Positions 1,836 through 30,016 are shown, numbered from the stretch's first letter. The stretch: 64,000 nucleotides of DNA from Promethearchaeota archaeon (GCA_014728035.1 WJMJ01000131.1:64001-128000), one strand, 5' to 3'. The notes: a model not told the origin generated them from the letters alone. Numbers and translations: made by a program.

Positions 1836-3131
1836 ATGGTGAAATATTTGAAAAGACCAAGCCACCTTGAAAAGAAACTCATGCTTGTTATGGTTTTACT
1901 ACTTCTAACTTCTGTGGTTTTCGTCGGAGCTCAGACAGATGATGATGACGATGATGAAACAGAAGAACAAGATGAGTATGAAGAAGAACACGAACCGGAA
2001 ATAGATAGAGATGATGACGGAACTGCCTGGATTCAAACTGATGTGATGACAGTGATGCTGGATTCAGAAGAACCATCCTATCAATTCTGGTATACAGGAG
2101 ATGCTAATGGCACACAATCCAGATTTCGAGTCAGTTATCTAGCAGTAGTTGAGTTCAATGACACTAATGGTGATGGTGTATTCCAAGCCAATGAGACTAT
2201 CGCATTTGTACCCCTTGAGGCATTCTCATGGAGCATTCAGACAGGATCTGTGACTGATGAACTAGGTCATACAACTGAAGTCTATGCAACCTACATAAAG
2301 GCTGGACTTACAGGAGAAGATTGGGATGATGATTGGTACGAAGATTGGTTACCAGGTTATTCCAATGATGATTTCGATGATGAAGACGATGATGATGATG
2401 ATAGTTATTCAGAAGAGGAAGATGGAGATCTCAACCTAACACAATACGAAGAGATGAATCTCCAATTCTATGCACACCTTTACCTTGAGAACTATTCTGG
2501 AACAGTAGAAGATGATGAAGGAGTCAAGGCAAACTATACAGTAACTGGAGGAGTAGAACTAAAAATTGACATAGAAATCGGAAACTTCCCCTTCCTCAGA
2601 AATGACTCCAAGATCGCAATCTTGAACTTCCTACAAGAAGATATTGCATCAGACGAGTCAAGAAATCATCGGTTTAGAATGCATGAAGACGATGACGACC
2701 ATGAATATGAATCCGAGGACGAATGGGATGATACGGACGAACTCGGAGAAGAGTTTGACGAGGTTGATGAAGATGAGGATTACGAGTCTGATGATGTTCA
2801 AGGTCTATCATTTGAAGAAGCCTCAACGAACGAAACCATGGCATTTTACAAATGGTTAGATAAAGCAGTAATGACCTTGCCAGATTCCTCAAAGCAATCT
2901 GTGGATGTTGGGGCATCATATTGGACAAATGGAGAAGGGCTTCTCCTCTTCTTCGCATATCCGAACTTCGATGGGGGTTCTTTACTTCATGACCCATCAA
3001 TCGTACTTAGAGACGATATTGCATCAAGGCTAACATTCAGCATTCCGATAAACATCCAAACTGTAGCAGTAATAGGAGTCACAGTAGTATCATTATCTGC
3101 AATTGCAGTTTTTCTGAAGAGAAGAAAATAA
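1836..3131 (+). CDS. Asp/Glu-rich secreted protein with C-terminal membrane anchor (paralog of 61011-61943 and 63007-63969)
   Basis: Signal peptide, poly-D/E tracts, EFNDTNGDG, ELKIDIEI, YPNF...HDPSI motifs, TM helix then KRRK. Start set at ATG 1836, about 25 nt after a TATA-like TTAAATA. Confidence 0.8.
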   Translation: MVKYLKRPSHLEKKLMLVMVLLLLTSVVFVGAQTDDDDDDETEEQDEYEEEHEPEIDRDDDGTAWIQTDVMTVMLDSEEPSYQFWYTGDANGTQSRFRVSYLAVVEFNDTNGDGVFQANETIAFVPLEAFSWSIQTGSVTDELGHTTEVYATYIKAGLTGEDWDDDWYEDWLPGYSNDDFDDEDDDDDDSYSEEEDGDLNLTQYEEMNLQFYAHLYLENYSGTVEDDEGVKANYTVTGGVELKIDIEIGNFPFLRNDSKIAILNFLQEDIASDESRNHRFRMHEDDDDHEYESEDEWDDTDELGEEFDEVDEDEDYESDDVQGLSFEEASTNETMAFYKWLDKAVMTLPDSSKQSVDVGASYWTNGEGLLLFFAYPNFDGGSLLHDPSIVLRDDIASRLTFSIPINIQTVAVIGVTVVSLSAIAVFLKRRK

Positions 3132-3138
3132 TCTAAAA

Positions 3139-3170
3139 GAGGGATTCAATATCCCTCCAATTCTTTTTTT
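3139..3170 (+). terminator. Hairpin plus T-tract
   Basis: GAGGGAT/ATCCCTC stem followed by a T-run just after the stop at 3131. Confidence 0.55.
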
Positions 3171-3202
3171 ACAGAAAAAGGTAAATGTAAAGAGGTAAGA
3201 CT

Positions 3203-4228
3203 ATGGCATCGAGTTCGAGAGCAAGATATGTACTATTGGTATTTTTCATATCTATCACTGTCATTAGCTCTTATAATCAACCTATCAATGCATATGCATC
3301 ATCAGATGTCAAGCTTAGCAATGTGGACATGGTAATTAAGAACTTGAATGATGGAGCTAGTTGGATAAATTATTCAGCTCATGCAACCAATGTACAACTT
3401 GATGCGATAGATAAGATAGATCTACGCTTTGACCTAAGAGATATCAATATGGTTGAAAGTACAATCCAAGGAAATCAAGTTGCTGCTACAACCACAATCA
3501 ACGAAAGATATAGCATAGTCACACTTACACTAGCTGATTCTTTGATTCATAATAATGCAGTTGAAATTAATCTGTATTTTAGTACTAATGAGATTCACGA
3601 ACAAATTGGAACAGATGAAGACAACTCGATTATACTTAACGAGGCAATCTATTACTTCAGACCAGGAGCTGCGGTGGAGAATCTTACTCTTTCAATGATT
3701 CTACCGGAGTATTCCCTGCTTAGTTGTAGTTGTGCTTCACCAGTATTTCCAAAACCTGATAAAAACTATACAGATGGCAGAAGGATCGCTTTTGTATGGA
3801 AGAAGAATCTCCTTCTACCAGGACAAGAAATAGCATATATTGTAAAATACAATACTCCAATATCCATAACATCTCAAGAAGAGTTGGTATTAATCAACTT
3901 GGTCTATCTTGGACTAGGAGGGATGATGGGAGTTATTTCGATGATTATTCTCCACCATTATGCGATCCTGCCATACCAAAAGAGTCGGGATTGTATTGAA
4001 AACACGGTAGTAGTTTCCAGTCATGAGAAAATGGTGTTGGACTATATCAGAAAGAGAGGTGGCTCATGTTCTCAACGAGATATCTATCGTGAACTGGGAC
4101 TCTCTCAATCCATGGCCAGTATGGTACTTACAAATCTTGAAGAACGAAAAATAGTAAAACGAATACGAAAAGGGAGAGAAAACAAAGTACATCTATTAGA
4201 CAATCTTGATGAGGGAATTACCAGGTGA
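3203..4228 (+). CDS. Membrane-anchored transcriptional regulator (extracellular beta domain, TM helix, C-terminal winged HTH)
   Basis: Signal peptide, TM near aa 230-250, C-terminal HEKMVLDYIRKRGGSCSQRDIYRELGLSQSMASMVLTNLEERKIVKR wHTH. Confidence 0.8.
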   Translation: MASSSRARYVLLVFFISITVISSYNQPINAYASSDVKLSNVDMVIKNLNDGASWINYSAHATNVQLDAIDKIDLRFDLRDINMVESTIQGNQVAATTTINERYSIVTLTLADSLIHNNAVEINLYFSTNEIHEQIGTDEDNSIILNEAIYYFRPGAAVENLTLSMILPEYSLLSCSCASPVFPKPDKNYTDGRRIAFVWKKNLLLPGQEIAYIVKYNTPISITSQEELVLINLVYLGLGGMMGVISMIILHHYAILPYQKSRDCIENTVVVSSHEKMVLDYIRKRGGSCSQRDIYRELGLSQSMASMVLTNLEERKIVKRIRKGRENKVHLLDNLDEGITR

Positions 4229-28672: not shown

Positions 28673-28728
28673 TTTACGGTGATGGAGGATTGATATAGAC
28701 GCATAGCAACGATTGTTTTGTGATTACA

Positions 28729-30016
28729 ATGGCAGATTACAAAGTCAAAGACATCGACCTTGCTGAAGAAGGAAGGATGTTAATTGAATATGCAGAGAAA
28801 CACATGCCAGTCCTCATGCATCTTAGAGAGAAATATTCCCAATCAAAACCTCTCAAGGGTATGAGAATAGCTGGGTGCCTCCATGTCACTAAAGAAACAG
28901 CTGTTCTTGTAGAAACACTCCAAGCAGTTGGAGCAGAAGTGGCTTGGTCAGGTTGTAACCCATTATCTACCAACGATAAAGTTGCAGCTGGATTAGCCGC
29001 GAATGACGTTCCGGTGTTTGCATGGCATGGACTGAATACAGAAGAATATTATTGGTGTATTGAAGAAACCCTGAAGAGAGAACCAACTCTTACTCTTGAT
29101 GATGGTGCGGATCTGATTTTCACATTGCACAACAAACATCAAGACCTTATCCCAAATTTGTACGGTGGCTCGGAAGAAACAACTACAGGTGTGATTCGTG
29201 TTAGAGCAATGGCAGAAGATGGTGCACTGAAGTACCCGATAATGGCAGTAAATGATGCGGACACAAAACACCTGTTTGATAACAGATATGGAACTGGACA
29301 GAGCGTCTTTGATGGGGTTCTTAGAGCATCAGCAATTCTGATTGCTGGAAAAACAGTGGTTATTGGAGGATATGGCTTCTGCGGCAGAGGTATGGCTGAA
29401 CGTGCAAGAGGCCTTGGTGCAAATGTCATCGTTACAGAGGTTGATCCTGTAAGAGGTTTACAGGCAAGAATGGACGGATACAGAGTCATGAAAATGGATG
29501 AGGCAGCTTCTGAAGGTGATTTGTTTCTAACAGCAACTGGAATGAAGGATGTCATAACTGGCGAGCATATGAAAGTCATGAAAGATGGTGCATTGATGGG
29601 AAATGCAGGACACTATAATGTAGAAATTAACGAACCGCACCTGATTGAGCTAAGTACAGGTAAACGCCGTGTTCGACACGCTCTTGACGAGTACAAGATG
29701 AAAGATGGCCGACGCCTCTATCTACTAGGCGAAGGTCGACTAGTCAATCTTGCGGCTGCCGAGGGTCATCCTAGTGAGAGGCAAGCATTTGGTGCTGCTT
29801 CCTAGAAAAGTGATGGACCTCTCGTTCGCAGGACAACTCAATGCAATGATCTGGATGGCAAAACACGGTAAAGACCTGAAACCAGCTGTCTATGAGTTTC
29901 CAGAAGAATTAGACAAGCAGACTGCAATGGCAAAACTTGAAACCATGGGAATCAAAATCGACAAGTGGACTCCAGAACAAGAAGCATATGCTAAAGCCTA
30001 TGCAGAAGGAACTTGA
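28729..30016 (+). CDS. ahcY: S-adenosyl-L-homocysteine hydrolase, join(28729..29776,29808..30016), 418 aa after removal of a 31-nt intron
   Basis: GCLH, SGCNPLST, LDDGAD, EETTTG, KHLFDNRYGTGQS, GYGFCG, GRLVNL...EGHPS in ORF 28720-29805; continuation VMDLSF...KWTPEQEAY in the +1 frame (ORF 29750-30016). Confidence 0.95.
29777..29807 (+). other. Putative BHB-type pre-mRNA intron (31 nt) in ahcY
   Basis: CTAG(29771-74)/CTAG(29802-05) 4-bp helix flanked by 3-nt bulges TGA(29775-77) and AAA(29806-08). Inner stem GAGGC-a-AGCA/TGCT-GCTTC. Excision gives AGT GAA GTG ATG = S-E-V-M. Confidence 0.85.

What the first reader, a model, noticed from the sequence alone, without database searches (positions are those of the whole stretch)
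29764..29819. Bulge-helix-bulge pre-mRNA intron interrupting SAH hydrolase (ahcY)
Seen: ahcY reads normally to ...EGHPS, then enters non-homologous codons and a TAG (29803-05). The conserved VMDLSF...KWTPEQEAY resumes 31 nt later in another frame. The insert folds as a 4-bp central helix CUAG(29771-74):CUAG(29802-05) with 3-nt bulges UGA(29775-77) and AAA(29806-08) on opposite strands. The intron hairpin is GAGGC-A-AGCA[UUUGG]UGCU-GCUUC, and the exon-exon stem is imperfect (C.A mismatch, then U-G, A-U, C-G, U-A, G-U). Established: archaeal splicing endonuclease EndA cuts after the second nucleotide of each BHB bulge. Applying that rule independently removes 29777-29807, exactly 31 nt, giving AGU-GAA-GUG-AUG = S-E-V-M and an intact 418-aa AhcY. 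Geometry, length, frame and conserved residues all agree, which a random frameshift would not produce. The well-characterised archaeal mRNA intron is in crenarchaeal cbf5; I know of none in ahcY, but cannot search to confirm novelty.
Basis: partly seen in the sequence, partly recalled or inferred. Interest (0 to 1): 0.96.

Follow-up and report, generated by a model that had tools for sequence, protein, structure and literature searches.

The report
tRNA-type mini-intron splitting Asgard ahcY
The only S-adenosylhomocysteine hydrolase gene of this Thorarchaeota (Asgard) archaeon is interrupted by a 31-base insert shaped like a tRNA intron, and related genomes show it almost certainly has to be cut out of the mRNA by the tRNA-splicing enzymes, a process published so far for a single archaeal protein-coding sequence (cbf5).

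Summary
ahcY reads 28729-29776, is broken by 31 nt (29777-29807) holding an in-frame TAG, and resumes at 29808-30016 in the +1 frame.

[quoted passage not shown] Cutting after the second base of each bulge gives an intact 418-aa AhcY.

No RNA data could be obtained, so the case is comparative:
- An insert sits at this exact site in 13 of 86 Thorarchaeaceae genomes (31, 32 or 59 nt), in Atabeyarchaeum (34 nt), in Freyarchaeum (191 nt) and in a third family (20-22 nt).
- Intronless relatives, including the same genus, read exactly the predicted junction.
- The helices covary, including an exon wobble base with an intron base.
- Synonymous sites are constrained only in the BHB-forming codons, and only in intron-bearing genes.
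- Exon 2 is under strong purifying selection.
- ahcY is single-copy, and the genome has EndA alpha and beta subunits plus RtcB.

Two further results:
- Freyarchaeum ahcY carries three BHB introns.
- In two near-identical gene pairs, the intron state travels with a short, highly diverged exon tract, which points to recombination.

This scan has already noted many such Asgard mRNA introns on other DNA. The papers I could search report only cbf5 and one 5' UTR.

Verdict: a real intron, and a new member of a known kind.

The parts
28729..29776 (+). ahcY exon 1: 349 codons plus the first base (G) of the Glu350 codon
   Evidence: ORF list. Pfam AdoHcyase and AdoHcyase_NAD, E 1.6e-61 and 1.5e-53. About 93% identical to the same-genus AhcY.
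29765..29770 (+). 5' strand of the outer exon-exon helix h. It pairs with 29809-29814; C29770.A29809 is a mismatch in this genome.
   Evidence: Sequence. In 13 of 14 aligned relatives this position is a C-G pair (pair 10-52).
29771..29774 (+). Central 4-bp helix, exon strand: CUAG, made of the Pro wobble base plus AG of the Ser codon
   Evidence: Pair 12-47 is U-A in 7 sequences and C-G in 6.
29775..29777 (+). 5' bulge UG|A. The predicted cut is between 29776 and 29777.
   Evidence: Unpaired in the minimum-energy fold. The junction matches intronless genes.
29777..29807 (+). The 31-nt intron: 1 nt, a 24-nt hairpin, the 4-nt complement of the upstream exon, and AA
   Evidence: Exactly the stretch missing from 13 of the 20 aligned relatives. 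Intron lengths are listed.
29778..29801 (+). Inner intron hairpin h': 5 bp, a bulged A, 4 bp, and a 5-nt loop
   Evidence: Five of its 8 scored pairs show changes on both sides.
29802..29805 (+). Central helix, intron strand (CUAG). It also supplies the in-frame TAG that ends the unspliced ORF.
29806..29808 (+). 3' bulge AA|A. The predicted cut is between 29807 and 29808.
29808..30016 (+). ahcY exon 2: the last two bases of the Glu350 codon, 68 codons, and the stop TGA at 30014-16
   Evidence: Translation. Pfam AdoHcyase profile positions 225-291. dN 0.019 against dS 1.1 versus G001.

Best explanation
The 31 nt at 29777-29807 are a bulge-helix-bulge (BHB) intron in the ahcY pre-mRNA of a Thorarchaeota (Asgard) archaeon.

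How it most likely works:
1. In the transcript, four exon bases (CUAG) pair with four bases near the intron's 3' end. This places a 3-nt bulge on each strand, flanked by an intron hairpin and a weak exon-exon helix.
2. The heterotetrameric (alpha-beta)2 splicing endonuclease EndA cuts after the second base of each bulge.
3. RtcB joins the exons and probably circularises the intron.
4. This restores the reading frame and the invariant GHPSEVMD motif, giving a 418-aa enzyme.

Shown here:
- the motif itself
- its exact agreement with the junction in intronless genes
- covariation of the helices
- selection on the BHB-forming exon codons and on exon 2
- presence of the enzymes

Inferred, not observed:
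- the cleavage and ligation themselves
- the timing of splicing relative to translation

Evolution: the site is occupied patchily in four Asgard families. In two near-identical gene pairs the presence or absence of the intron coincides with a short, strongly diverged tract around the site. Recombination with a diverged allele is therefore one route by which the intron is gained or lost.
For: Anatomy
- The anatomy and frame are as described.

Distribution
- Names on related contigs place the organism in Thorarchaeota.
- In its family, 13 of 86 genomes carry an insert at the identical site. It is 31 nt in G000, G015, G002, G022, G007, G045, G059 and G012; 32 nt in G046, G049, G079 and G003; and 59 nt with two hairpins in G050.
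- The others, including same-genus G001, are intronless and read ...CCN (AGY/TCN) G|AR GTN ATG GA.
- A pattern search of 400 Asgard genomes found 17 carriers and none with the reversed control pattern. G050 and G210 carry inserts too long for that pattern.
- Carriers outside the family are Atabeyarchaeia-1 and a congener (34 nt) and three genomes of family f31 (20-22 nt).
- Atabeyarchaeia-1 and Freyarchaeum are manually curated complete genomes, identified by their exact lengths (with PMC11291895).

The cut rule works everywhere
- After BHB-rule removal, all 15 alleles give intact 418-419-aa proteins, or open frames to the contig end in three truncated loci.

Selection for the structure
- 85.7% of cells are paired, against 23-47% when partners are slid. 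Six pairs change on both sides. No shuffle of 500 reaches the observed covariation score.
- The exon Pro wobble base covaries with an intron base: U-A in 7 sequences, C-G in 6.
- Synonymous third-position identity rises to 0.62 (31-nt class) and 0.88 (32-nt class) only in the 4 codons before and 5 after the junction, and only among intron-bearing genes. Intronless genes show 0.34-0.42 there. Elsewhere the value is about 0.4.

The gene is functional
- Exon 2 has dN 0.02-0.09 with dS about 0.4-2, the same as exon 1 and as intronless genes.
- ahcY is single-copy in a genome estimated 97.9% complete.

Enzymes
- An EndA alpha subunit with Tyr/His/Lys candidates at the expected motif positions, read by eye and not aligned to a solved EndA; a beta subunit lacking the His; and an intact 483-aa RtcB frame.
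- Asgard (alpha-beta)2 EndA with the L1 loop is the broad-specificity type (PMC5829648).

Generality
- Freyarchaeum ahcY has three BHB inserts of 56, 29 and 191 nt. Removing them gives one open frame with all motifs intact.
- The actin gene on the same contig of this genome has a 30-nt BHB insert. G001 and others lack exactly those 30 nt.
Against: - No RNA evidence: no sequencing run was listed for this stretch.
- Folding energy alone is unremarkable (z -1.63).
- In this genome the outer helix starts with a C.A mismatch, and the minimum-energy fold prefers a 6-nt 3' bulge. The motif here is therefore relaxed rather than strict hBHBh'.
- In the 32-nt class, three of four sequences have a G.A in place of the fourth central pair.
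- Stop codons do not exclude a single ribosomal frameshift in 14 of 15 alleles.
- A genome-wide BHB descriptor scan gave no excess over shifted-cut controls (132 against 107-122 hits). Structure alone therefore does not single out such introns.
Confidence: 0.88

Rival explanations
1. Programmed ribosomal frameshifting or translational bypass reads through or over the insert, and no RNA splicing takes place.
For: In 14 of 15 alleles the target frame is open before the first stop in the exon-1 frame, so a single shift is not excluded by stop codons.
Against: - The shift required differs between orthologues: +1 for the 31- and 34-nt inserts, -1 or +2 for the 32- and 59-nt inserts. One allele (G103) has no path at all.
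- Read-through would insert 7 to about 60 residues into the invariant GHPSEVMD motif.
- I saw no shared slippery sequence in the aligned inserts, by eye only.
- Inner-hairpin sequences are unrelated between families, while the BHB geometry and cut positions are kept.
- Covariation of an exon wobble base with the intron's 3' end has no role in frameshifting.
Confidence: 0.03
2. The gene is truly split. A 361-aa N-terminal fragment and a separately initiated C-terminal peptide of about 67-88 aa assemble into an active enzyme.
For: - Both ORFs are open: 28720..29805 and 29750..30016.
- An ATG (29813) lies just inside exon 2.
- Public annotations already list truncated 353-359-aa 'adenosylhomocysteinase' proteins.
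Against: - This reading does not explain conservation of a BHB whose cut sites always restore the frame.
- It does not explain the class-specific constraint on synonymous sites at the junction.
- One f31 allele has a 21-nt in-frame insert; by my hand translation of the sequence it has no stop, so that gene is not split.
- Near-identical genes differ only by the presence of the insert.
Confidence: 0.04
3. The gene is a pseudogene, or the insert is an assembly or sequencing artefact in this metagenome-assembled genome.
For: - The genome is a 173-contig metagenome-assembled genome with 8.5% estimated contamination.
- Annotation pipelines call a truncated protein.
Against: - The same insert class is present in 13 family genomes. 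Contig names of Thorarchaeota records found show several different projects, but I did not map those records to the 13 carriers.
- It is also present in two curated complete genomes that were validated with long reads.
- Exon 2 keeps an open 68-codon frame with dN/dS of about 0.02-0.08 in every carrier.
- ahcY is the only copy in the genome.
Confidence: 0.02

Closest known systems
BHB intron in the cbf5 (pseudouridine synthase) pre-mRNA of Crenarchaeota (Watanabe 2002; Yokobori 2009, PMC2738675)
   Same: A short BHB intron inside a coding sequence, removed by the tRNA-splicing endonuclease. Presence is patchy among relatives, with gains and losses. The host has the broad-specificity heteromeric EndA.
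   Different: - A different gene (a core methyl-cycle enzyme) and a different phylum (Asgard).
- One site is shared by four families, with intron lengths from 20 to 191 nt.
- A single gene can hold up to three such introns (Freyarchaeum).
- cbf5 splicing was shown by RT-PCR and in vitro cleavage. Here splicing is inferred from comparative data only.
BHB intron in the 5' UTR of HVO_1309 mRNA, Haloferax volcanii (PMC7714728)
   Same: An mRNA substrate of EndA found beside the tRNA and rRNA substrates.
   Different: That intron lies in an untranslated leader, so it does not interrupt a reading frame. That paper states cbf5 was then the only other mRNA case.
Non-canonical tRNA introns of Asgard archaea and Thermoproteales (PMC11291895; bioRxiv 10.64898/2026.10.13.758758)
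   Same: The same mini-intron build: 1 nt, a hairpin, 4 nt complementary to the upstream exon, then two bases that are usually AA. Presumably the same enzymes act. The lineages rich in tRNA introns (Atabeyarchaeia, Freyarchaeia) are the ones that also carry ahcY introns.
   Different: The host RNA is a translated message. Frame restoration and the race with ribosomes therefore matter. Neither paper mentions mRNA introns.
Unconventional HAC1/XBP1 mRNA splicing in eukaryotes (IRE1 cleavage, ligation by RtcB or Trl1; general knowledge, e.g. PMC6592678)
   Same: Spliceosome-independent removal of a short intron from an mRNA. Both cuts fall in small stem-loop or bulge structures, the ligase is of the tRNA type, and in XBP1 excision of the intron shifts the reading frame.
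   Different: The nuclease is IRE1, not the tRNA-splicing endonuclease. That splicing is a regulated stress switch. Nothing here shows regulation.

Membership tests
Archaeal bulge-helix-bulge (BHB) intron | Two 3-nt bulges on opposite strands separated by a 4-bp helix | tested here: met
   CUAG 29771-74 pairs with CUAG 29802-05; the bulges are UGA and AAA. Of the four central pairs across 14 sequences, two are invariant, one shows compensatory change, and one is G.A in 3 sequences.
Archaeal bulge-helix-bulge (BHB) intron | Flanking helices h (exon-exon) and h' (intron) as in the strict hBHBh' form | tested here: inconclusive
   The inner helix is strong, with 91% of cells paired and 5 covarying pairs. 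The outer helix is weak, with 74% paired. In this genome it begins with C.A, and RNAfold prefers another register. This is a relaxed motif, which the (alpha-beta)2 EndA type is reported to accept (PMC5829648).
Archaeal bulge-helix-bulge (BHB) intron | Cutting after the second bulge base on each strand yields the functional mature RNA | tested here: met
   The cut gives the junction found in intronless orthologues and an intact AhcY in 15 of 15 alleles. It also does so in three Freyarchaeum introns and, by my hand reading of the sequences, in three f31 introns.
Archaeal bulge-helix-bulge (BHB) intron | The host encodes the splicing endonuclease and an RNA ligase | tested here: met
   Two PF01974/PF02778 proteins are present. 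One has Tyr/His/Lys at the expected motif positions by eye and the other lacks the His. RtcB scores 591.7 bits.
Archaeal bulge-helix-bulge (BHB) intron | Excision seen in RNA (spliced junction, circular intron) or by in vitro cleavage | not testable with these tools
   No sequencing run was listed. The metagenome scan for the junction returned only unrelated ahcY genes, all at 77% identity or less.
Group I / group II self-splicing intron, or any known RNA family | A ribozyme core recognisable by covariance models; size of hundreds of bases | tested here: not met
   No Rfam match in the window at gathering scores. None in the Freyarchaeum introns at E up to 1. Most of these inserts are only 20-59 nt.
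Programmed frameshift site | The same shift direction and a conserved slippery or stimulatory element in orthologues | tested here: not met
   The shift needed is +1 in some orthologues and -1 in others, and one allele has no open path.

The most novel reading that the evidence does not exclude
BHB mini-introns in Asgard mRNAs may be exchanged between lineages by recombination that co-converts flanking exon sequence, rather than being only passively inherited and lost. They may also be held by selection beyond mere pairing.

Observations that leave this open:
- The 31-nt class is 86% identical on average, and 100% identical between two genera, while four-fold sites of the host gene are saturated at 31%.
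- The gene tree rejects a single clade of carriers.
- Two gene pairs that are 96-98% identical outside the region differ 4- to 8-fold more in a tract of about 110-360 nt around the intron site, and the intron state goes with the tract.
- The same codon boundary is occupied in four families by unrelated hairpins.

If true, the closest prokaryotic relatives of eukaryotes would offer a working model of intron gain, loss and site preference in protein-coding genes.
Probability: 0.35. Interest if true: 0.9.

Novelty: new member of a known kind. Interest (0 to 1): 0.8.

Why it matters
Splicing of protein-coding messages by the tRNA-splicing machinery is reported, in the papers I could search, for only one archaeal coding sequence (cbf5) and one 5' UTR.

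Here an essential single-copy metabolic gene of an Asgard archaeon cannot yield its conserved protein unless its mRNA is spliced. The same codon boundary carries such introns in four Asgard families, and one species has three introns in this gene.

Consequences if this holds:
- Annotation of Asgard genomes is affected. Public databases already hold truncated 353-359-aa versions of this protein.
- It raises the question of how splicing is coordinated with coupled translation.
- It gives a tractable system for studying intron turnover in the archaeal relatives of eukaryotes. There are many presence/absence pairs, and visible recombination tracts.

Tried and rejected
- **RNA evidence:** The look-up of sequencing runs listed no run for 29300-30016 (none was listed), so read laying could not be used.
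- **Spliced junction in metagenome contigs:** The best match to any Thorarchaeota or Atabeyarchaeia gene was 77% identical, so it was uninformative.
- **Spliced cDNA in the protein collection:** the search found only intronless genomic relatives and truncated forms. The Logan contig L280 is a 2.5-kb stretch with three called genes and is only 90% identical to G007, so it is not evidence of splicing.
- **Genome-wide BHB scan of G000 with an ORF-restoration filter:**
  - 1714 loose and 132 strict hits, against 107-122 strict hits with the cut sites shifted.
  - There is no usable excess, because same-strand gene boundaries dominate.
  - ahcY was recovered by the scan. I did not see actin among the hits that were printed; that output was cut.
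- **A multi-copy intron family within G000:** blastn-short and a search for the hairpin-apex motif found no second copy. Mobility by transposition within this genome is not supported.
- **Known RNA families:** no Rfam match in the window or in the long Freyarchaeum introns.
- **Contig break in G054:** two G054 contigs end near the site, but they overlap and that gene is intronless there. This is an assembly break, not an intron.
- **RNA polymerase lead:** I only checked that two overlapping ORFs on C25 (353-2209 and 2055-3419) can be joined by removing 2071-2101. I made no comparison with relatives.

Full report
**1. The observation**

The window holds an S-adenosyl-L-homocysteine hydrolase gene on the + strand.
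- From ATG 28729 it reads normally to ...AAAEGHPS. It then runs into ERQAFGAAS and a TAG at 29803-05.
- The conserved C-terminal 68 residues (VMDLSF...AYAEGT) follow in the +1 frame, up to TGA 30014-16.
- Pfam places exon 1 on AdoHcyase and AdoHcyase_NAD. It places the exon 2 product on AdoHcyase profile positions 225-291.

RNAfold reproduces the 4-bp CUAG:CUAG helix, the 3-nt 5' bulge and the inner hairpin, but shifts the weak outer helix by three bases. The energy is not unusual, with z = -1.63. The sequence facts are therefore confirmed, and their significance has to come from comparison.

**2. The organism and its enzymes**

The window is contig C103:64001-128000 of a 4.33-Mb, 173-contig genome estimated 97.9% complete. 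The closest named ahcY contigs are all 'Candidatus Thorarchaeota' or 'Promethearchaeota' metagenome-assembled genomes.

The genome has two splicing-endonuclease paralogues.
- One has Tyr/His/Lys at the expected motif positions, judged by eye.
- The other lacks the His.
- Both carry PF01974 and PF02778.

This is the (alpha-beta)2 arrangement. PMC5829648 reports that arrangement for Asgard archaea, with the L1 loop that goes with broad substrate range. RtcB is present and intact. ahcY is single-copy.

**3. Relatives**

A DNA search of the family (86 genomes), a protein search and a pattern search of 400 genomes of the phylum agree.

| Insert length | Carriers in the family |
|---|---|
| 31 nt | G000, G015, G002, G022, G007, G045, G059, G012 |
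| 32 nt | G046, G049, G079, G003 |
| 59 nt, two hairpins | G050 |

All thirteen inserts sit after the first base of the Glu codon of GHPS-E-VMD. All other family genes that cover the site lack it, including same-genus G001. They read the junction that the BHB rule predicts.

Outside the family, the same site carries:
- a 34-nt insert in two genomes of family f13
- inserts of 20-22 nt in all three genomes of family f31
- a 191-nt insert in one genome of family f21

Exact contig lengths identify three of these genomes as the curated complete genomes of PMC11291895.

| Genome here | Length (bp) | Identity | State at this site |
|---|---|---|---|
| G036 | 2,808,651 | Atabeyarchaeia-1 | 34-nt intron |
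| G102 | 2,756,679 | Atabeyarchaeia-2 | intronless |
| G210 | 3,576,204 | Freyarchaeum | 191-nt intron |

Assembly error is therefore excluded. The reversed control pattern matched nowhere.

**4. Is it a BHB intron?**

In every case the boundary demanded by the protein lies two bases after a 4-bp helix on both strands.
- 31-nt class: CCUAG UG|A ... CUAG AA|A
- 32-nt class: CCCAG UG|U ... (A/C)UGG AA|A
- Atabeyarchaeia: CCAG UG|U ... CUGG AC|A
- f31: CCAG CG|U ... CUGG AA|A
- Freyarchaeum: CCAG UG|A ... CUGG UA|A

Removing the inserts by this rule gives intact 418-419-aa proteins in all 15 alleles tested.

On a 14-sequence alignment:
- 85.7% of cells pair, against 23-47% when partners are slid.
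- Six pairs change on both sides.
- No shuffle of 500 reaches the observed covariation score.

The most telling pair joins the wobble base of the exon's Pro codon to an intron base: U-A in seven sequences and C-G in six.

**5. Selection**

Synonymous third positions are at background identity (about 0.4) along the gene. The exception is the four codons before and five after the junction, and only among intron carriers. There the identity is 0.62 within the 31-nt class and 0.88 within the 32-nt class. Between the two classes it is 0.23 in the four codons before the junction, where the classes differ systematically, and 0.68 in the five after it. Intronless genes show 0.34-0.42 there. This is what selection for the exon strands of a BHB predicts.

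Exon 2 of carriers has dN 0.02-0.09 against dS 0.4-2. Its amino-acid identity (0.79) is close to that of intronless genes (0.83). It is therefore translated in the frame that splicing creates.

**6. Rivals**

- **Frameshifting.** Stop codons do not forbid it in 14 of 15 alleles. But it would need +1 in some orthologues and -1 in others, and it would put 7 to about 60 extra residues into an invariant motif.
- **A truly split gene.** This does not explain the BHB covariation, the junction-specific synonymous constraint, or a 21-nt in-frame allele in f31 that, by my hand translation, has no stop.
- **Pseudogene or artefact.** This is excluded by sections 3 and 5.

**7. Generality**

Freyarchaeum ahcY has three BHB inserts.

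| Length | Boundaries | Position |
|---|---|---|
| 56 nt | CCGG AA\|U ... CCGG AA\|U | in EETTTG-I |
| 29 nt | UGGG AA\|A ... CCCA AA\|U | between TKWE and FDN |
| 191 nt | (as in section 4) | the GHPS-E site |

Removing all three gives one open frame with every motif intact. The middle site is also occupied in G215 (30 nt; its congener G212 gives the same tblastn alignment) and in G209 of another family (23 nt).

In G000 itself, the actin gene on the same contig (C103:997-2130, minus strand) has one in-frame TAA. This comes from a 30-nt insert, CCAG AA|U, a 9-bp hairpin, CUGG UA|A, at C103:1052-1081. G013, G015 and G009 keep it. G001 and about ten others lack exactly 30 nt.

Earlier notes of this scan list an RNA-polymerase intron in this genome and many Asgard mRNA introns elsewhere, two of them with RNA support. 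Of those leads I verified only actin.

**8. Turnover**

- On the ahcY tree, carriers are scattered. Well-supported branches force at least 7 changes, and parsimony gives 11-12.
- AU tests reject a single clade for the 31-nt class (p about 1e-51) and for all carriers (p 0.014).
- The 31-nt class is 86% identical on average, and 100% identical between G015 and G045. Four-fold sites of the host gene are at 31%.
- No second copy of the intron exists in G000.

Two near-identical pairs are informative.

| Pair | Divergence outside the tract | Divergence within the tract | Tract (codons from the junction) |
|---|---|---|---|
| G049 (32 nt) vs G023 (none) | 4.3% | 18.9% | -90..+30 |
| G012 (31 nt) vs an intronless NCBI MAG, L279 | 1.6% | 13.5% | -25..+12 |

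- In the first pair's tract, G049 is nearest to the carrier G046 and G023 is nearest to the intronless G080.
- The second pair's tract includes an AGT/TCG serine codon switch.

Loss of constraint after intron loss can explain changes in about five codons on each side, but not tracts this long. Exchange of the intron state by homologous recombination with a diverged allele is the simplest reading. The direction, gain or loss, is open.

**9. Literature**

Full-text searches found BHB introns in archaeal mRNAs only for cbf5 (PMC2738675) and the HVO_1309 5' UTR. The latter paper states that cbf5 was then the only other case.

Papers on Asgard tRNA introns and EndA do not mention mRNA introns. The library lacks most subscription journals, so a report there cannot be excluded.

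**10. Verdict**

- A genuine BHB intron in a core metabolic gene, supported by strong comparative evidence and lacking only RNA-level proof.
- A new member of the cbf5 kind. It extends that kind to Asgard archaea, to a site shared by four families, and to multi-intron genes.
- Interest is high for the field. It is tempered by the fact that this scan has already met the phenomenon repeatedly on other DNA.

Noticed in passing
L144:1052-1081 (-), = G000 contig C103, about 63 kb upstream of the window: The actin gene of the same genome has a 30-nt BHB insert (CCAG AA|U, a 9-bp hairpin, CUGG UA|A) between TFQ and MWVS, with an in-frame TAA. G013, G015 and G009 keep it. G001 and about ten other relatives lack exactly 30 nt.
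   Followed up: yes
L137 (-): 2067-2012, 1928-1900, 1394-1204: ahcY of the complete Freyarchaeum deiterrae genome carries three BHB introns of 56, 29 and 191 nt. Removing them gives one intact open frame. No Rfam family matches the long introns.
   Followed up: yes
L138:1030-1110 (+), L140:1735-1810 (-): A second ahcY intron site, between TKWE and FDN, is shared by families f21 and f7. Inserts are 30 nt (G215; in frame, but with a stop) and 23 nt (G209).
   Followed up: partly
G389:C81:2061-2103, G390:C24:7258-7302, G391:C182:3358-3401: Family f31 (small genomes of 1.4-2.0 Mb) has very small introns of 20, 22 and 21 nt at the GHPS-E site, with only a 4-bp inner hairpin. By my hand translation the 21-nt one is in frame and has no stop.
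   Followed up: partly
L028/L042 (G049 vs G023) and L040/L279 (G012 vs NCBI GCA_053582745.1): Near-identical ahcY genes that differ in intron presence show a short tract of 4- to 8-fold higher divergence centred on the intron site. This looks like a recombination or co-conversion tract.
   Followed up: yes
G006:C1:191972-192112; G048:C3:38340-38491; G059:C67:3993-4134; G085:C4:104411-104551; G015:C1:188439-188514: Several Thorarchaeota genomes have a second match to the 3' end of ahcY (the exon 2 region) 1-2.5 kb downstream of the gene. G000 has none. This may be a partial duplicate or a related gene.
   Followed up: no
Proteins P0011, P0013, P0042, P0046, P0050, P0068, P0069, P0080, P0091, P0101: Public databases (NCBI, JGI, Logan) hold many 353-359-aa 'adenosylhomocysteinase' entries from Thorarchaeota. 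Their length is what the unspliced exon-1 ORF would give; I did not inspect their sequences. Gene callers probably truncate the protein at the intron.
   Followed up: partly
G000 contig C25:2071-2101 (+): The RNA polymerase largest-subunit gene is in two overlapping frames (353-2209 and 2055-3419). Removing a 31-nt candidate BHB insert would join them. I checked only the ORF geometry.
   Followed up: partly
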